From contig JARDVH010000193.1 of assembly GCA_030324005.1 (NCBI GenBank), positions 21,560,098-21,622,170 of the forward strand: DNA of 62,073 nucleotides. Reading direction: 5' to 3'. Below the pieces are notes generated by a model. The model saw nothing but the letters and a program-made list of their open reading frames with translations. It was not told the DNA's origin and made no database searches. The number at the start of each line of letters is the position of its first letter. The stretch's first letter is position 1. The translations under genes were made by a program, and so were the position numbers. Positions 13,340 to 58,469 of the stretch are shown here, piece after piece. This DNA is from Negaprion brevirostris (taxonomy: Eukaryota).

Positions 13340-13540
13340 ATTGCGTGGGTTTCCTCTGGTTGCTCCGGTTTCCTCCCACAGTCCAAAAGATGTACTGGTT
13401 GCATGCATTGGCCATGTTAAATTCTCTCTCTGTGTACTCGAACAGGCATCGGAGCATGGCGACTAGGGGATTTTCACAGTAACTTCATTACAGTGTGAAT
13501 GTAAGCCTTCCTGTGACTAATAAATAAACTTTAACTTTAA
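13340..13540 (+). mobile_element. V-SINE with an alternative (non-HER1) tail, 5'-truncated
   Basis: V-domain gcgtgggtttcctc...tgctccggtttcctcccacagtccaaa, then tggcgactagggg...taataaataaactttaactttaa. Confidence 0.8.
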
Positions 13541-13689
13541 TAGTTTGTTTCAATAAATTAAAGCCTCAGGTGATAGAACTCTATCATTTTGTATGCATTA
13601 TCAAAACATTAGGCTGATTAACAGTGTGTAGTTTTCTTCCGTCCTTTCGAGTTATCTTTGCAACTTTTGTCAACATTTTTCTGAGAAAT

Positions 13690-14620
13690 TTTGATTTGAT
13701 TTGATTTATTATTGTCACATGTATTAGTATACAGTGAAAAGTATTGTTTCTTGTGCGCTATACAAAGCATATTGTTCATAGAGAAGGAAAGAAGAGGGTG
13801 CAGAATATAGTGTTACAGTCATAGCTGGGGTGTAGTGAAAGATCAACTTAATGCGAGGTTAGTCCATTCAAAAGTCTGATGGCAGCAAGAAAGAAACTGT
13901 TCTTGAATTGGTTGATACATNNNNNNNNNNNNNNNNNNNNNNNNNNNNNNNNNNNNNNNNNNNNNNNNNNNNNNNNNNNNNNNNNNNNNNNNNNNNNNNN
14001 NNNNNNNNNNNNNNNNNNNNGAGGCTGATTTGAGCGATGGACTGAACTTCATTCACGACCCTTTGTAGATTTTGTAGTATTGGACACAGCAGAAGCCACA
14101 CCAAAATCTGATATAACCATAAAGAATGCTTTTTATGGTGTATCTGTAAAAGTTGGTGAGACATGTCAAATTTCCTTTGTCTTCTAACAAAGTAGAAACG
14201 TTGATGGGTTTTCTTAATTATAGTGTCAGCATGAAGGGACCGGCACAGGTTGTTAGTGATCTGGACACCCAAAAATATGAAGCTCTTGACCATTTCTACT
14301 AAGGAGTATAGTAAGGGGCTGGGGACACAGCCTTGCAGAGCTCCGGTGTTGAGGACGAACGTGGAGGACGTGTTGTTGCTTATCCTTACTGATTGCAGTC
14401 TGTGGGTTAGGAAATTCAGGATGCACTCACAGAGGGAGGAGCCGAGCCCCAGGCCACGAAGTTTGGAGATGAGTTTTGCAGGAATAATGGTGTTGAAGGT
14501 TGAGCAGTAGTTTATAAATAGGTGTCTTTGCTATCCAGGTGTTCCAGTGTTGAGTGTAGGGCCAGAGAGATGGCATCTGCTGTGGACCTGTTGTGGTGGT
14601 AAGCGAACTGTAGTAGAACC
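13690..14620 (-). mobile_element. Rex1/Babar LINE 3' part (contains a 100-N gap)
   Basis: [15 protein letters not shown]...[26 protein letters not shown]-like and [18 protein letters not shown] motifs; (tttga)n tail. Confidence 0.8.
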
Positions 14621-22949: not shown

Positions 22950-24330
22950 CGTAACAAATTCTGGGGGCTCTGGCAGCATCAAAGTTCTTCATTCAGTTGG
23001 AATTTGTAAATCAAAAGGATTTGAGGAGAATCTGGAACTTGGATGTTTTGTGTTGAGAGATTTTAAAGTGATTGGACTGCAATGTGGCTTTAGCAGTTGC
23101 TAAGACTGGAAATGGAACATGTAACTGTGGAGTATTTGGAATCTTTGGCTAAGGCTCAGTTGAGTGTGTTAGCAGCTAAATTTGATTTGATTTGATTTAT
23201 TATTGTCAAATATATTAGTATACAGTGAAAAGTTTTGTTTTTTGCACACTATACAGACAGAGCATACCGTTCATTGAGAAGGAAAGGAGAGTACAGAGTG
23301 TAGTGTTACAGTCATAGCTAATGTGTAGAGAAAGATCAGCTTAGTGTGAGGTAGGTCCATTCAAAAGTCTGATAACAACAAGGAAGAAGCTGTTCTTGAG
23401 TCAGTCAGTATGTGTCTTCAGACTTTTGTATCTTTCTCCCGACAGAAGGAGGTAGAACAGAGTATGTCCGGGGTGCGTGGGGTCCTTGATTATACTGGCT
23501 GTTTTTCCATGGCAGTGAAAAATGCAGAGAGAGTCAATGGATTGGGGGCTGCTTTGCATGACGGACTGGGCTTCATTCATGACCCTTTGTAGTTTCTTGC
23601 GGTCTTGGGCAGAGCAGGAGCAGTACCAAGTTATGATGCAACCAGAAAGAATGCTTTCTATGGTGCATCTGTAGAAGTTAGTGAGAGTCAGATAGAAAGT
23701 ACAGGTGTAAATAAAAGTGCAATTTCATACAGTAGATATAGTTAAAGTACATACGCAACAGTTAAAATGAGAGGTGGAAACAGCTAGAATCACACAGTTA
23801 GAGCTCGTAAGACTTCAGCTGCAAATGAAGCAGCTTGATATAGAAAAACGAATGGAACTGAAAAGACTTGCACTGGAAGTAAAAGAAAAGGAAAGTGAAA
23901 TGAAAACATTTGAACTGGAAGAAAAAGAAATGAAAAAACTTGAAAAAGACAAGGGCAAATTAAAAGAAAAAGGAATGAAAAAGCTTCAGTAGGAAAGAGG
24001 AGTAAGAAAAGGAAAAAAATACAAGAAATAGAAATATGAAAGCTTGAACTTTAGGGAGAAGTTAGCAAATAAGGAGAGGAAGAAGGATACAGATAGAAAG
24101 CTCCAGAGAGAAAAAGAAGCCAAACAATATGAACTGTTTAAAGTGAAGCTTAGAACAAAGGAGGGATAGTGATTCAGGTGGTGACTTTGATTCCTTTAAG
24201 GAATTAGCTTTAACTAAGAATCTTGGTTTAGTATCTAAATTTGGTTGGAGTTGAAAGTTTTCTTACCTCATTTAAAAAGATAGCTATGAGATTGAATTGA
24301 CCAAGAGATGCTTGGACTATAATGGGCCAT
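22950..24330 (+). mobile_element. Gypsy (Gmr1-like) gag remnant interrupted by Rex1
   Basis: LTR-like end gtcgtaaca, partial tRNA-Pro PBS tgggggctc (22962-22970), E/K coiled coil LELVRLQLQMKQL, then LVSKF...ESFLTSFKKIAMRLN*PRDAW. Confidence 0.65.
23180..23690 (-). mobile_element. Rex1/Babar LINE 3' end
   Basis: Closely similar to 13690-14165, with the same tttgatttgatttgatttattattgtca tail. Confidence 0.85.
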
Positions 24331-32930: not shown

Positions 32931-32973
32931 ATGTTATCAAAGACTCTTGCTCCAGTTAATTGATAGACACAGA

Positions 32974-33174
32974 TTTTTTTGTTTGTTTTTATTCCAATTC
33001 AATCCAATCAAGTCCAATCCAGAGTCTCAGCAAATTGAGACATTCCCAATCCAAGCTGACAAGACAGGGCTCTCACCTCCTGCCTCAGGCTTGATCTACA
33101 TGATTGGAGTAGGTAGAACTCCACCTCCAAGGCTTGATCTCATTTGCATCTTAGCCAAAAGGCCAAGATGCTGC
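32974..33174 (-). mobile_element. U2 snRNA-headed A-tailed retroposon (SINEU-like), copy B
   Basis: Minus strand GCATCTTGGCCTTTTGGCTAAGAT matches 22/24 of vertebrate U2 nt 4-27; two AGATCAAGC hairpin units; AATAAAAACAAACAAAAAAA tail. Confidence 0.75.
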
Positions 33175-33904
33175 TTTTAAAAAAGATTTTATCTTTACAT
33201 CAAATCACATATTCACGAGGAAAATGTAACAAAACTTTAAATACTTATGCTACAAGACTGATTTTTTTATATTGTATCACAAATCAATGCTTCTATTCTC
33301 CTATAAATCTACTGTAACAAGTTTACAAACGTAGATGTTTACAATTCATACTCATCTAATGGACCTGTAGTGGTGTCTCTATCCACTCAGGCTGAATAGG
33401 CATGGAGAGGGATCAGACGTCATCAAGCTTAAATCCTGAAGTTTCTTTCTTCTTCTGTGGTTCTTCTCTTCCAGTTCTGTTCTTCAAAATTCCAATATTT
33501 ATTCTTCTGAGACTGACTGGAATAGATGCAGTTCTGCATGTAGTCATTTACCATAGGCATATCCAAATTAGTTTATGGCAGTCTGCCCAAGCTCAGGGCA
33601 GTATCCTAAACCTGTTTAACTCCTGGTTCCTGCCCATTTGATTGATTAGAATGACTTTATTATCCATCGTAAAACCAAAGCCATTTGTTACAAGTAAACA
33701 GAGCAGTCTACGTATTCAGCCTAGAGTTAAAACCATCTGTTCTGATGTTAGCCACATTTTCCATCAGGCCATTGTAGTGTCCTTTTCTTTGCTTGGCCAT
33801 TTTTGATTAGACTATAGCCCACCAGCTACACCATCATCCCCCACAGAGGCATGCAACAATATTATAAATATTGAACTATTATACATTTGAGACTATTTTA
33901 TAAG

Positions 33905-41782: not shown

Positions 41783-42613
41783 GGCTGGGATTTACCCAAA
41801 ACAAAACCACATGCCCAAAGGGCAGGAACCCACCCATTTTTGGGCATACTTACCCGAATGAATCTCCCGACATTCTGAGTAATACAGAGTGCCTCGGAGT
41901 GATACATGCTGAAAAGTGATGGATAAGGTCTATTCCCTCCTGAGAGGCTGGCAGCATAGTGCTGAGCGGGTCACTGTGCATGTGCCGATCTGTCAGTGTA
42001 CTGGTATCCCCATCNNNNNNNNNNNNNNNTCCCATGAACTGCCCCCTACGCTGGCCTTCCCAACCCCGCCCAAACTGCTGGCATCCCAGCCCCCGCCCCC
42101 CATGGCCAACCCTGACCTCCTCCACCCCATTGACCAGGCCCGAAACCATCAACCCCCCCAGCCCCCTGATGGTCAATCTCGATCGCTCTCCACACTCCGT
42201 TCCCCACTGATCCCACTTGCAGGGTGGCAGCAGGTCCACCTCTCCAGCAGTGGTTAGCACTGCTGTCTCACAATGCCAGGGACCCGGGTTTGATTCATGG
42301 CTTGGGTCACTGTCTGTGCGGAGTCTGCACATTCTCCCCTTGTCTGCATGGGTTTCTTCCAGATGCTCCGGATTCCTCTCACAATCCAAAGATGTGCTGA
42401 TTTGGTGCATTGGCCATGCTAAATTCTTCATCCGTGTATCCAAACAAGCACTAGCATGTGGCAACTAGATTTCCACAGTAACTTCTTTGCAGTGTTAATG
42501 TAAGCCTACTTGTGATACTAATTAATAAACTTTAAACCTACAAAACTCATATGGAAATTTCGTGTGGAGCTGATTGTGCTCAAGCAGCACAGCAGACCAG
42601 GAGAATCCCGGCC
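41783..42613. mobile_element. PIF/Harbinger-type MITE
   Basis: TIRs ggctgggatttacc / ggagaatcccggcc (12/14); ATT on both flanks (3-bp TSD). Confidence 0.7.
42246..42535 (+). mobile_element. V-SINE with alternative tail, nested in the MITE
   Basis: cagtggttagcactgct...gggtttgattc...V-domain...cacagtaacttc...taataaactttaaa. Confidence 0.85.
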
Positions 42614-55077: not shown

Positions 55078-55267
55078 CACAGGAACTGGCACACCATGAG
55101 GAGAAACTTTTACTAATGGGGAGTGGCCTGCAAACCACACAGAATCAACTAAGTGATCGTATTGCAGAGATTGTGCGACACGAACAGAAAAGTCGTAAAC
55201 TTCAGTCAGAGCTTAAAACACTGAAAGAACAGGCAATTAGCAACAAAGAAGAGATGGATGATTACAG
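55078..55267 (+). CDS. PMFBP1: Exon E (190 nt, phase 1/2): (A)QELAHHEEKLLLMGSGLQTTQNQLSDRIAEIVRHEQKSRKLQSELKTLKEQAISNKEEMDDY(R)
   Basis: Strong acceptor tttttctttcttcacag, donor CAG|gtgaac. Resembles PMFBP1 AQQAAQCKEE...LEDTQRKL...IQELQRELQMLQKE. Confidence 0.85.
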
Positions 55268-55443
55268 GTGAACTATTTAATGCTTTGTTGACCAGAAAAG
55301 TGAAACCATGATCAGGCAGGGGACACTGTTGCACTTGGGTGTGTTGATGCCTCGGATCATGGTTTGCCTAAGCTAGGATAGAGTAAAGTATCAGGGCAGC
55401 CAATGAGGTTAAACCGAGGCTTTACCTGATGCAATTTGTCAAA

Positions 55444-55649
55444 GTCACCTCAGCCTTTTGGCTAAGATGAAGCGTTAGATCAAGCTCAGGAGCAGGTGCA
55501 ATGCCTCACCCTGATAACTTGGATCTTGGTTGATCGAGCCAAGATAGAGTGCAATGTTTTGTCTTGTCAGCTGGGATCTAGTTTGTCCTTCATGAATTAG
55601 ACTCAATTTGAATTGGCTTTTTTGATTACAAATAAAGTACTAAAAAAAA
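55444..55649 (+). mobile_element. U2 snRNA-headed A-tailed retroposon (SINEU-like), copy A
   Basis: 55449-55475 CTCAGCCTTTTGGCTAAGATGAAGCGT matches 24/27 of U2 nt 8-34; two ~50-nt hairpin units; AATAAA then A8. Confidence 0.75.
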
Positions 55650-58469
55650 GTGATTGCTAACTTTGACATAGTATAGTACTGGATGCAGAATTCTTGTTAA
55701 AAATTAAAGTAAATTTATAGTCAACTCAATATATTATAACAGACTGCTAATATAACCAAACTTTATCAAGTTCTAATTTTCTCCTCGTGCTCAGCACAGA
55801 TGAAGAGGATGCTGTTACATTGCTAGTACATTTCTCCCTCAGCTATATAATAAACATTAATAAGTCTTACAGCTGCACATACAGCCTGTTAATTTTGGCC
55901 ATTATCAATTCTTATGTCTATATTTGTAAAGGAAATGTCTCTAAACTTGCAAATTCTAAATATATTATTGTGGTGTTGCAGTGGTTCAGCTTTGCATCTT
56001 ACAGCGACTCAGCCTTTACTGCAGAAAAGCACTCTTGCTTCATTCCAGCTCAACTTTCTTATTCCCCATATTGCAGTGTAGATTTTTTGACAGTGTAATA
56101 TCCTAACCATGTCAGGCATTGGATTTTAAACAAAAAGAAAAAAAATGTGAATTGCATGTGTAGATTCAAAGTAACACATATCAAGTTTATTGAAAGAGAT
56201 GTTCAGGAAATGAAACTAAACAACAGCCTGTGAAACACCCTAATGATATCAACATCATGTGATTAATGCATGTTAATACATCGCATCATTTACATGAAAT
56301 TTTGGATTTTTTTACACTATGGATATTATTCATTATATGTAATTTTCCTACACTTGACTTTAAAAGCATTCTTTGCAATATAACAAAAAAAATTGTTGTT
56401 TCACATTCCAGCATCCACAGTATTTTGCTTTTACTTTTGTAATCCAATGTTTGTGGATTTTATTTTTATTTGTATGAAATCACATGAGCTAACCTATCAA
56501 ACAATGTCATTTCATTTAAACCCTGTATGGTGTTTAATTTAAATATTTCATATTCAAATCTTCTATTTGACTAAGAGCAAATATTGAACCGTTTTAGATA
56601 AAGCCCTTTAATAATCTGGAATATTTGAACCAGAGAATAGTGAGTATTCATTTCTGTGGGTTGTGAGAAAAGCAAGCCGACATCATTGCTGCAATGCTTT
56701 CCCATTGTCGCTTACGGATAAAGGTTGTCTGCACAGTCAGTGAACAGAAGTGTTAACTACATGATATGCCAATAGGTATTAGGTAGGATTAGTAATTAAG
56801 TGATGGGTTGAAGAATAAACTGGGCATTTGTCAAACCTGAAATAATTTTGTAAGTATCTTCTGCCGCAAACCTGGCAAACATAATTGCTGGTGTATTGAT
56901 TGGGCTTTATGCTGGTCTGGTGGCATGGGTGGAGGAGAAAGGCACTGGGAGTCAGCAGTATTGATTAACCATTATAGGAGTTAGTGGTTTGTGATGTCTG
57001 TTTGTTGTGAAGACTTTTCTCAGTGAGAAATATTTCTTTTGACAGAATGAATGAGTAAATACAGTGCAGCACAAAAAATGGCTCGTGATTTCACGCATTA
57101 TTACAGATGGACCATTTTATCCATTATATTGAACACTTCAGTAGAAATACAGTTGTAACACTAAATTACAACTGAATTATCTCATAGATTTTCAGATCAA
57201 TGTTTCTCATCATTATAGACAGCAAGGCTGAAATATATTAGCTATTCTTTGCAATAGACTGTTTTAAAGAAAAATAAAGTGCGAAATGAGACCAGTATCA
57301 TCCCATGTCACAGAACGATGGGGAGTCACATGGGGCAGACTGGCCTTTCACGTAGTTTGCACATCATCTGAGGGCCAAGAGCTGCTCATGGAAAACAGAT
57401 AGTACAGGACAGACAGTCAGCTTCAAGCTGTCTTGATGTAAGGTAACCGACTCCAAGTCGAAAAAGCAGGTACTTTGGACTGGAGATGTTCCTTCATGGG
57501 TTGGGAGGGAGGGACCTGGCATGGCAACCCAAAAGAACATAGGTAAGTGTGGAGGAGCAATCCTGCTATTTTTGGTCCAATAAAAATAAAGTAGCACTTT
57601 AGGTAAAGTTTTTTTTAATTGCCTTTACTAATTAGGCACAAGCAAAGATTTTGCAGTCACAGTATCATCTGAAGGTTCTCCTGAATGCGCATTTGCCCTT
57701 TGTCAGTTACCTAGTAATGCTGAACACACTAATATATCCAGATTCTTGCAAATTTAGAAACCAAAAGCACCAACAAAGGGAAATTAGATATCTGAAATGA
57801 GAACAACTTTTTAATTTGTTTTGTCAAAGTACTTCCAGTGATTGATCTCACCTCACAGAATCACAAAATTGTTACGGTGCTAAAAGAGGCCACTTGGCCC
57901 ATCACTTCTGCTGTTTGGATATTATCGACGCACAGGTTTAGTCACCAATGCATTTTCTTTTTGCAGCCTTCCCAAATCACCCTGTCAATGAGGGGGTAGG
58001 TAGAGGAATATCTGGGCCTAGGTCTCAATGACGAGATGTTGTCACAGGAAAACAGATGGTGCATTTTAAGATTGCACTTCCTCCAGGTGCCCATCTCCTC
58101 AAAAGGCAGGGAGATGCCATCACACACCAATAATGAGGAGGAGCACCAGCAAGGCAACCTTGGAATTTCAGCTGCCATTCAGCCTTCTCTCTGCTAGTGA
58201 CTCCATTTCCTCCAGCAGATTAGATCGAGGACTCTGCACCTGCACTTGTGCAAAAGACAGTTAGCAGCCCTCAGTCCACCAGAGGATGTCTGCCAAAATC
58301 ACCACAGTCAACAGGGCATGGCAGTTAGCAGACTGCCTCCACCTCAGCTGCAGTTGTTGAGACTGCACCTAGGTGTAAGGGTAGAAAGAGGAAAATAGAA
58401 AAATTTTGAAGGCAAATAAGTATCACAGATGTACAGCCATTGTATATAGTTTTGGCACTTGTAAATATA

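What the first reader, a model, noticed from the sequence alone, without database searches (positions are those of the whole stretch)
55477..55579. Tandem hairpin units in the U2-headed element keep pairing despite sequence divergence
Seen in copy A: unit 1 (55477-55526) pairs AGATCAAG/CTTGGATCT and TCAGG/CCTGA. Unit 2 (55531-55579) pairs GATCGAGC/GCTGGGATC and CAAGATAGAG/TTTTGTCTTG. Both have the same apical GTGCAATG. Copy B uses different stems in the same places: TTGGAG/CTCCAA with AGGTGG/CTACCT, and GAGGCAGG/CCTGTCTT. It also has a GTCTCA/TGAGAC hairpin where U2 has stem IIb. Each unit starts with U2 nt 24-31 (AGATCAAG), and unit 2 ends in sequence like U2 nt ~44-62. Inference: the units are duplications of the U2 branch-point stem-loop region with a replaced, extended apex. 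The covariation suggests selection on RNA structure, for example protein binding or RT recruitment.
Basis: partly seen in the sequence, partly recalled or inferred. Interest (0 to 1): 0.7.

Follow-up and report, generated by a model that had tools for sequence, protein, structure and literature searches.

The report
Locked U2 hairpins in shark retroposons
The two hairpins belong to thousands of short jumping elements in a shark-like genome that are built from pieces of the U1, U2 and U4 splicing RNAs; their stems stay paired from subfamily to subfamily while inserted copies decay at random, which suggests that the fold mattered to the source RNAs, likely as a locked form of U2's intron-reading stem-loop that would also offer a protein-binding site.

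Summary
The hairpins are real. They lie in a family of snRNA-built retroposons in an elasmobranch-like genome (3,291 exact hits to a unit pattern, control 0). Copy A is not U2-headed: it runs U1 head, U4 5' stem-loop, U2 stem I, two units, U2-like tail, poly(A). Nine unit consensuses from five subfamilies share one fold. Between subfamilies 16 of 19 changed pairs stay paired (neutral simulation P 4e-5 to 7e-4; SINE-only 11 of 14, P 0.002-0.014), with 13 G-U and no A-C states. Within copies, stems and loops mutate equally (7.6%), and RNAalifold on raw copies finds nothing. So selection acted on source RNAs, not on these insertions. The inner hairpin is probably U2's branchpoint stem-loop (nt 22-48), ungapped and stabilised; its apex is mutated, not replaced. 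Subfamily B and a Tx1 LINE both insert in U2 genes at the Keno site. Closest known: crocodilian SINEU. I found no shark report in print (limited searches), but this scan noted the family before, in this and other genomes. Function is inferred; no expression data.

The parts
55300..55649 (+). Copy A: 5'-truncated member of subfamily A of an snRNA-built SINE (U1-U4-U2-unit1-unit2-tail-poly(A))
   Evidence: Genome search: 40 scored matches at 76-82% over ~350 nt, 2,087 first-look candidates; family consensus
55300..55357 (+). U1 snRNA-derived head (family covers U1 nt 1-95 with an 11-nt deletion; this copy starts near nt 19)
   Evidence: Consensus A vs own-genome U1 (L037): 83% over nt 1-95, E 2e-27
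55396..55420 (+). U4 snRNA 5' stem-loop piece (nt 23-47), with the GA/GA pattern of the kink-turn (label recalled)
   Evidence: 92% to own-genome U4 (L093), E 1e-6; kept in A, E, I and eroded in B
55448..55472 (+). Internal U2 nt 7-31 piece (stem I)
   Evidence: 96% in consensus, E 8e-8; exact 16-mer at 55453
55477..55526 (+). Unit 1: outer stem, C/UCA internal loop, inner stem, 7-nt loop
   Evidence: Fold of copy z -1.5; consensus A1 -22.6 kcal/mol, z -2.4
55531..55579 (+). Unit 2: same architecture; inner hairpin 55540-55566 lines up ungapped with U2 nt 22-48
   Evidence: Copy z -1.9; consensus A2 z -2.9; 16 of 27 identical to U2 22-48
55580..55649 (+). U2-like tail: stem IIb remnant (10-nt deletion in this copy), altered Sm-like tract, AATAAA 55631-55636, A-tail 55642-55649
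   Evidence: Consensus A vs U2 44-87: 77%, E 4e-5; sequence
55296..55303 (+). Possible 8-nt target-site duplication, repeated at 55646-55653; weak, overlaps the element's first bases
   Evidence: TSD scan
32974..33183 (-). Copy B: 5'-truncated member of subfamily B (full copies start with U2 nt 1-40)
   Evidence: 40 scored matches at 86-91%, 2,417 candidates; alignment and flanks
33101..33140 (-). Copy B unit 1, outer 3' arm deleted (10 nt; same gap in 2 of 30 copies)
33047..33097 (-). Copy B unit 2
   Evidence: consensus B2 z -3.9
33024..33041 (-). Stem IIb-like hairpin; pair 4 runs C-G (U2, A), U-G (C, E), U-A (I, B)
   Evidence: z -3.11; pair table
32962..32973 (-). 3' flank of copy B resembling U2 nt 39-50 (9 of 12), the Keno/Utopia target
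   Evidence: site as given in PMC4640811 passages
55080..55268 (+). Host exon (pmfbp1-like) ending about 30 nt before copy A; not part of the element, fixes the host as an elasmobranch-like fish
   Evidence: 76% to Chiloscyllium punctatum and 68% to Hemitrygon akajei pmfbp1, 3 hits among 36 candidates

Best explanation
The two units are a duplicated hairpin module of an snRNA-built retroposon family whose pairing is conserved between subfamilies but not within inserted copies, and each unit is likely a locked form of U2's branchpoint-interacting stem-loop that was selected in the transcribed source elements, probably as a stable protein-binding module. Steps: (1) shown: thousands of poly(A)-tailed copies, some with 12-17 nt duplications, in at least five subfamilies; (2) shown: subfamily B and a Tx1-type LINE both sit in U2 genes at nt 38/39, and one B head lies directly behind a U2-array spacer; inferred: source copies are transcribed from snRNA-gene promoters, polyadenylated, and copied in trans by the Tx1 (Keno-like) enzyme; (3) shown by prediction and covariation: U2 segments that pair with other RNAs are either mutated and locked (units) or left intact but paired with a following antisense stretch (heads of B, I, E); inferred: this keeps the RNA out of the splicing cycle; (4) shown: outer stem, C/UCA loop and bulged G are almost invariant (1 of 21 columns vary) while the inner stem varies freely but stays paired (12 of 18), and the unit went from one copy (C, D) to two (A, E, I, B); inferred: a protein reads the invariant lower part, which raises RNA stability or access to the LINE enzyme. 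The protein is not identified. My odds: structure selected at RNA level 0.85; U2 22-48 ancestry of the inner hairpin 0.7; protein-binding role beyond masking 0.5.
For: 3,291 exact unit-pattern hits, reversed control 0. Nine unit consensuses fold alike, z -2.4 to -4.2. 16 of 19 changed inner pair states stay paired, 5 double-sided; neutral expectation 10.7-12.7 unpaired vs 3 seen. 72 natural copies: 87% cells paired vs 30-48% in slid registers; 120 double-change cells vs 44 shuffled; 8 of 10 inner pairs have double changes. 13 distinct G-U states, 0 A-C, against 206:178 in decaying copies, P 3e-4: strand-specific, as expected for RNA. Unit C carries A30G and U43A, the two stabilising changes M1 and M2 of Stevers et al.; M2 and M1/M2 gave little to no reporter splicing (PMC13019295 passages). 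A30G is in all 7 ten-pair units. Head U2 33-38 pairing probability 0.92 (B), 0.67 (I, E) vs 0.20 in U2 folded alone. B copies followed by the U2 3' half at 3 loci; Tx1 tails followed by U2 at 3 loci; U2-like 3' flanks in 5 of 30 B copies vs 9 of 489 controls, P 6e-4. LINE relatives named TX1, RVT_1 and zf-RVT.
Against: RNAalifold on the same 72 copies predicts no pair. Two of the five measures are not above shuffles (pairs with double change 196 of 500; pair types 465 of 500), and cells are not independent. The simulation uses a minimum spanning tree on 9 pairs; SINE-only P is 0.002-0.014 and 3 changes do break pairs. The 16/27 match to U2 22-48 is not significant in a free search (43 of 300 shuffles) and ties with a place in U4; it rests on colinearity with the U2-derived tail and on 8 of 11 differences being transitions. 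Subfamilies C, I, E were seeded from a pattern that demands the outer stem, which inflates its invariance (an independent stem-I sample had both arms in 22 of 30; 7 were cut by N, 1 interrupted). One of the 13 G-U states may be CpG decay. U2-like flanks are not enriched in A (0 of 16), E (0 of 20), I (1 of 29) or C (0 of 26), and only 1 of the 16 protein-found Tx1 3' ends is followed by U2. Some B copies lack a complete unit 1 (2 of 30; L337). No protein partner or transcript was shown.
Confidence: 0.6

Rival explanations
1. Masking only: the hairpins exist just to hide or disable U2's splicing-active bases so that the abundant RNA neither disturbs splicing nor is cleared as a faulty snRNA; no protein reads them.
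For: Every U2 25-31 copy in all five consensuses is paired (P 0.69-1.0 vs 0.55 in U2); BSL-stabilising changes known to abolish reporter splicing; loop sequence drifts freely in B, I2, E2.
Against: Deleting the segment would mask it more simply, yet it was duplicated and both copies kept; the internal loop and bulge are invariant while the inner stem turns over.
Confidence: 0.22
2. No selection: template-switch repair of near-palindromes in DNA makes the arms match.
For: Two adjacent pairs flip together on the branch to I1/B1; copies show no selection at all.
Against: 13 G-T and 0 A-C states in consensuses vs about 1:1 in copies; bulges are never repaired; stem IIb changes through a G-U intermediate.
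Confidence: 0.07
3. The apex and 3' arm are antisense to U1 stem-loop II (or arose by fold-back from it) and pair with U1 snRNA or with the element's own U1 head.
For: Duplex with own-genome U1 at nt ~47-71 beats shuffles for A1 (2 of 500), A2 (1), E1 (5), C (12).
Against: Absent in B1, B2, I1, I2, E2 (63-322 of 500), and B is the least diverged subfamily (94%); 27 non-independent tests, noticed after the fact; whole-element folds keep the units as local hairpins.
Confidence: 0.07
4. The unit mimics U2 stem-loop IV / U1 stem-loop II and binds U2B''/U1A through the UGCA in its loop.
For: The Rfam U2 model places unit 1 on stem-loop IV in 2 of 4 alignments, with low posterior probability in the upper stem; loop holds UGCA in C, A1, A2, I1.
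Against: The loop lacks the full AUUGCAC/G motif (recalled) and is 7 nt; UGCA is lost in B1, B2, I2, E1, E2; no sequence match to U2 146-186 above chance.
Confidence: 0.03
5. The units are part of a self-cleaving ribozyme that releases the element from a longer transcript.
For: Some target-specific LINEs use one (R2, cited in PMC4494074).
Against: No Rfam ribozyme in the window or in five representative loci; no hammerhead core on the sense strand of any consensus; units are internal, and full copies begin at snRNA +1.
Confidence: 0.01

Closest known systems
SINEU-1/-2/-3 of crocodilians (Kojima 2015, PMC4494074; parts 1-4 of 5 of the text read, figures and supplements not seen)
   Same: Short, non-coding, poly(A)-tailed, U1 or U2 heads added repeatedly, partial internal duplications, oligo-T runs, link to Tx1 LINEs, some Tx1 copies with a U2 head (L249).
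   Different: Host is an elasmobranch-like fish (paper: none outside crocodilians); a U4 piece is built in; body is a remodelled U2 with a duplicated, covarying hairpin (in the parts I read the paper gives no RNA-structure analysis); preferred site is the U2 gene, not Mariner-N4. Homology to the SINEU-1 3' body could not be tested.
Keno (Tx1 clade) and Utopia, U2-targeting LINEs (PMC4640811, passages read)
   Same: Insertion with the downstream U2 flank starting at nt 38/39, seen for subfamily B and for a Tx1-type LINE here.
   Different: The element encodes nothing and shares no clear 3' tail with the LINE; targeting is weak (most copies are elsewhere); I built no tree to place the LINE in Keno.
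[quoted passage not shown] 2026, PMC13019295; abstract and passages read)
   Same: Same 10-pair register (U2 22-31 with 39-48), with the A30-C40 and U27-U43 weak spots.
   Different: Weak spots repaired, loop mutated away from GUAGUA, stem IIa bases captured in a new outer stem; a permanent helix rather than a dynamic one.
Alu dimer (recalled, no call)
   Same: A SINE that doubled a folded domain of its parent RNA and kept both folds in source genes.
   Different: Alu's domain binds SRP9/14 and has a pol III promoter; here no partner is known and transcription is probably from outside the element.

Membership tests
SINEU (Kojima 2015) | 5' head from U1 or U2 snRNA | tested here: met
   A: U1 1-95; B, I, E: U2 1-40; C: U2 1-35
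SINEU (Kojima 2015) | Short (<500 nt), non-coding, 3' poly(A) | tested here: met
   Consensus lengths about 220-395 nt with A-tails
SINEU (Kojima 2015) | Many copies of shared structure (not one-off chimeric retrocopies) | tested here: met
   3,291 and 1,028 exact pattern hits; five subfamilies at 87-94% mean identity to consensus, 148 copies
SINEU (Kojima 2015) | Target-site duplications from target-primed reverse transcription | tested here: inconclusive
   Matches of 8 nt or more in 39 of 137 copies, several clean ones of 12-17 nt, many short or internal; no shuffled control
SINEU (Kojima 2015) | Shared target with a Tx1 LINE | tested here: inconclusive
   Met for B (3 loci in U2 genes, 5 of 30 U2-like flanks) and Tx1 (3 loci); not seen for A, C, E, I
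SINEU (Kojima 2015) | No internal pol III promoter | not tested
   Runs of 4 or more T occur in all consensuses; A/B boxes not scanned
SINEU-1 proper | Homology to the shared SINEU-1 3' body | not testable with these tools
   Consensus sequences are in figures/Repbase; supplement not available
Functional U2 snRNA gene | Intact branch-point recognition sequence, stem IIa, Sm site, stem-loop IV | tested here: not met
   Loop mutated in units, IIa bases captured, Sm-like tract altered or absent, no stem-loop IV; window copies score no Rfam U2 hit; best family copies 39-47 bits from the head alone
Keno (partner LINE) | Tx1-clade RT inserted at U2 nt 38/39 | tested here: inconclusive
   Tx1-type by relatives and domains, U2 junction at 3 loci, most copies elsewhere; no tree
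Known self-cleaving ribozymes | Rfam match or hammerhead core | tested here: not met
   activity itself not testable

The most novel reading that the evidence does not exclude
Shark SINEs turned U2's dynamic branchpoint stem-loop into a fixed, doubled protein-docking module, the snRNA counterpart of the Alu domain, and launch from U2 gene promoters into which they home with a Keno-like LINE; the invariant lower stem and C/UCA loop would be the handle that brings the RNA to the LINE enzyme.
Probability: 0.3. Interest if true: 0.75.

Novelty: new variant of a known kind. Interest (0 to 1): 0.55.

Why it matters
How promoter-less snRNA-headed SINEs are transcribed and how they engage a LINE is left open in the paper that defined them (PMC4494074). 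This family offers a second vertebrate lineage, a graded subfamily series in which compensatory changes can be read off, candidate source positions inside U2 genes, and one small invariant RNA motif to mutate. It also shows, by natural variation, the same BSL-locking changes that inactivate U2 in human cells, and it is a clean example of why covariation must be sought between SINE source genes and not among dead copies.

Tried and rejected
Rfam on the window: 0 hits at gathering score, one chance hit at E 0.47. RNAalifold on 72 copies: no structure. U1-antisense and stem-loop IV readings: weak, subfamily-limited. Hammerhead core: absent on sense strands. Unit pattern in viral (2 stretches) and metagenome contigs (7): none of 9 has a U2 head, read as chance. 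Sequencing runs for a B copy: no RNA holder listed; 20 rows from 9 studies and 8 coded organisms, 14 rows with half the words or more; none was laid, so I use this neither for expression nor for distribution. No reads were laid, so expression, start sites and presence in other species stay open. A shared LINE-SINE 3' tail: no BLAST match between consensuses A/B and the Tx1 3' end was seen; only an AATAAA-like stretch is common. U2 hairpin units in LINE 5' regions: nearly all 20 LINE loci were 5'-truncated or gapped, so untested. Literature searches: SINEU+snRNA, SINEU+shark (17), Keno+U2 (30), SINE+U2+cartilaginous (61), SINEU+crocodilians (67), shark genome+SINE+U4 (75, 0 papers), snRNA-derived+SINE+elasmobranch (83): listings showed no report of shark SINEU; PMC5381603 and PMC7922186 were seen as listings only; Repbase and Dfam could not be searched and may hold the family. 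A 7SK-like GAUC/GAUC resemblance was recalled and not tested.

Full report
OBSERVATION. Folded alone, the window units are only modestly better than dinucleotide shuffles (z -1.50, 16 of 200; z -1.89, 8 of 200); the pair of units reaches z -2.50 but in a partly different register; copy B's two-unit region is no better than chance (z 0.04). Rfam finds nothing in the window. So two copies alone do not prove the point.

WHAT THE ELEMENT IS. A search of the own genome with copy A gave 40 scored matches of about 350 nt at 76-82% (2,087 first-look candidates); copy B gave 40 at 86-91% (2,417). With U1, U2 and U4 genes taken from the same genome, consensus A reads: U1 1-95 (83%), a second short U1-like piece, U4 23-47 (92%), U2 7-31 (96%), unit 1, unit 2, U2-like 44-87 (77%), AATAAA, A-tail. 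Full B copies start with U2 1-40 and carry an eroded version of the same middle. A pattern for the outer stem hits 3,291 places, reversed control 0. Its first 100 hits showed more types; three were used as queries. From 148 of 150 loci (two short loci dropped) I built five consensuses: C (one unit, long U2-like 3' part), A, E, I, B (two units); mean identity of copies to consensus 91, 89, 87, 92, 94%. These sets are the best matches to each query, not random samples. The neighbouring exon matches pmfbp1 of a bamboo shark (76%) and a stingray (68%), so the host is an elasmobranch-like fish.

THE UNIT. All nine unit consensuses fold the same way: 8-9 bp outer stem with a bulged G, a C/UCA internal loop, a 9-10 bp inner stem, a short loop; -18.8 to -23.8 kcal/mol, z -2.4 to -4.2 (0-26 of 1,000 shuffles). 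The inner hairpin of C lines up without gaps on U2 22-48: arms 22-31 and 39-48, loop 32-38; 16 of 27 identical, 8 of 11 differences transitions, and the apex differs from U2's loop by three transitions. That region is the branchpoint-interacting stem-loop; Stevers et al. (PMC13019295, abstract and passages) describe its A30-C40 and U27-U43 weak spots, and report that U43A, alone or with A30G, leaves little to no reporter splicing and low U2 levels. Unit C has both changes; all seven 10-pair units have A30G. Caveat: in a free search over U1, U2, U4 and both strands the 16/27 match is not significant (43 of 300 shuffles) and ties with a place in U4. The case rests on position, directly upstream of the clearly U2-derived tail. 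The outer stem is a second copy of U2 24-31 paired with an altered U2 52-62.

IS THE PAIRING SELECTED? Between consensuses, on a minimum spanning tree over nine pairs, 19 pair states change: 12 give Watson-Crick, 4 G-U, 3 mismatches, 5 are double-sided. Placing the same number of substitutions at random gives 10.7-12.7 unpaired outcomes (P 4e-5 to 7e-4; without the U2 edge 3 of 14, P 0.002-0.014). On 72 natural copies (first eight gap-free copies of each type) 87% of cells pair, against 30-48% in slid registers; double-change cells 120 vs 44; 8 of 10 inner pairs show double changes, 1 of 9 outer pairs; the two pair-level measures are not above shuffles. RNAalifold on the same alignment predicts nothing. 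The reason is visible in the copies: departures from their own consensus hit stems and unpaired bases equally (744 of 9,743 vs 244 of 3,215, CpG excluded), only 7 of 4,304 paired cells are doubly compensated, and G-U and A-C outcomes are 206 and 178. In the consensuses, by contrast, units, stem IIb and head hairpins hold 13 distinct G-U states and no A-C (P 3e-4 under the copy ratio; one state may be CpG decay). This strand bias and the never-repaired bulges argue against DNA palindrome repair. Selection therefore acted on the transcribed source elements; the window copies are dead and decaying. Outer stem and internal loop vary in 1 of 21 columns, inner arms in 12 of 18. Part of that contrast is ascertainment, but a sample chosen by stem I alone had both outer arms in 22 of 30 (7 cut by gaps, 1 interrupted).

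MASKING. Where U2 25-38 is intact (heads of B, I, E) a following antisense stretch pairs with it: probability 0.92, 0.67, 0.67 for nt 33-38 vs 0.20 in U2 folded alone. These are predictions without proteins.

MOBILITY. B copies are followed by the U2 3' half at L091, L200 (nt 38/39) and L073 (nt 43). A LINE with RVT_1 and zf-RVT domains and TX1-named relatives is followed by U2 at L205, L092, L089. PMC4640811 (passages) puts the Keno/Utopia downstream flank at nt 39. Five of 30 B flanks, including the window's copy B, match U2 39-50 at 8 or more of 12, vs 9 of 489 controls; A, C, E, I show no such excess in that count. Of 16 LINE 3' ends found by protein, 1 is followed by U2 and 2 by a B head, so targeting is loose. 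On contig C9130 a B head follows a spacer 78% like that of a tandem U2 array. Transcription from snRNA promoters and trans-mobilisation by this LINE are inferred, not shown; no reads were laid.

HOW IT LIKELY WORKS. A source copy in or behind a U2 (or U1) gene is transcribed, polyadenylated and folded. Its U2-derived parts are locked, so it would not act as U2. The doubled unit, with a fixed lower part and a free but paired upper part, has the pattern of a protein-binding module; I put that at about even odds given selection on structure. Rivals: masking only (0.22), palindrome repair (0.07), antisense to U1 stem-loop II (0.07; signal in A1, A2, C, E1 only), stem-loop IV mimicry (0.03), ribozyme (0.01).

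WHAT IS KNOWN. Kojima 2015 (parts 1-4 of 5 read; supplement unavailable) defines SINEU, found only in crocodilians, and leaves transcription open. The shark family meets the design criteria that I could test; descent from crocodilian SINEU could not be tested. Seven literature searches listed no shark report; PMC5786205 (passages) mentions SINEU once and sharks not at all; repeat databases were out of reach. Earlier notes of this scan describe the same family in this and other genomes, including the hairpins, masking and U2 homing; they agree with my reading, were read after it had formed, and are not independent support. The short entries that I saw do not mention the U4 piece, the BSL register with the M1/M2 changes, or the source-versus-copy test.

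VERDICT. Real, family-wide, selected RNA structure in a SINEU-like element of a new host lineage: a new variant of a known kind. Interest 0.55.

Noticed in passing
window 55080-55268 (+): pmfbp1-like exon; copy A sits about 30 nt into the next intron, same strand, and has lost the U1 5' end that would pair with splice sites.
   Followed up: partly
subfamilies B, I, E (e.g. L044, L269, L287 heads): A third hairpin: the intact U2 25-38 of the head is paired with a following antisense stretch of different sequence in each subfamily; in E it runs 20 pairs into the U4 piece.
   Followed up: yes
subfamilies A, E, I, B middle: U4 5' stem-loop with GA/GA pattern kept in A, E, I through stem changes and eroded in B.
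   Followed up: partly
L206 / L092 (G000:C9130): Order: B 3' half, truncated Tx1, U2 43-186, spacer 78% like the U2-array spacer, U2 1-39, B head. A U2 array with stacked insertions.
   Followed up: partly
L036 / L074: Three tandem U2-like genes, period 492 nt, only 84% like the best-scoring U2.
   Followed up: no
L091:1225-1740: B copy followed by the U2 3' half and by sequence like the flank downstream of the U2 gene in L031, but without its upstream region; may be a copied read-through transcript.
   Followed up: partly
L098, L211, L219: B heads directly behind the A-tail of the Tx1 LINE.
   Followed up: partly
L249:3972-4500: U2 10-35 fused to what looks like a LINE ORF1 piece, with the Tx1 3' end after a 3-kb gap.
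   Followed up: no
L032, L033, L034: U2 variants with an extra A after nt 30, two on small contigs; perhaps from another organism in the assembly. L032 and L073 also have 5S rRNA-like sequence nearby (label recalled).
   Followed up: no
L114, L133, L150, L333, L344: Single-unit copies with U1/U4-type middles (type D), likely the step between C and A; no consensus built.
   Followed up: no
L256/L258, L157, L051: Head-to-tail or nearby second copies of the SINE.
   Followed up: no
window 13386-14161 vs 23178-23686 and 42388-42515; families D1-D4: Several ordinary dispersed repeat families, including a ~9.5-kb-spaced pair at 79-90% identity.
   Followed up: no
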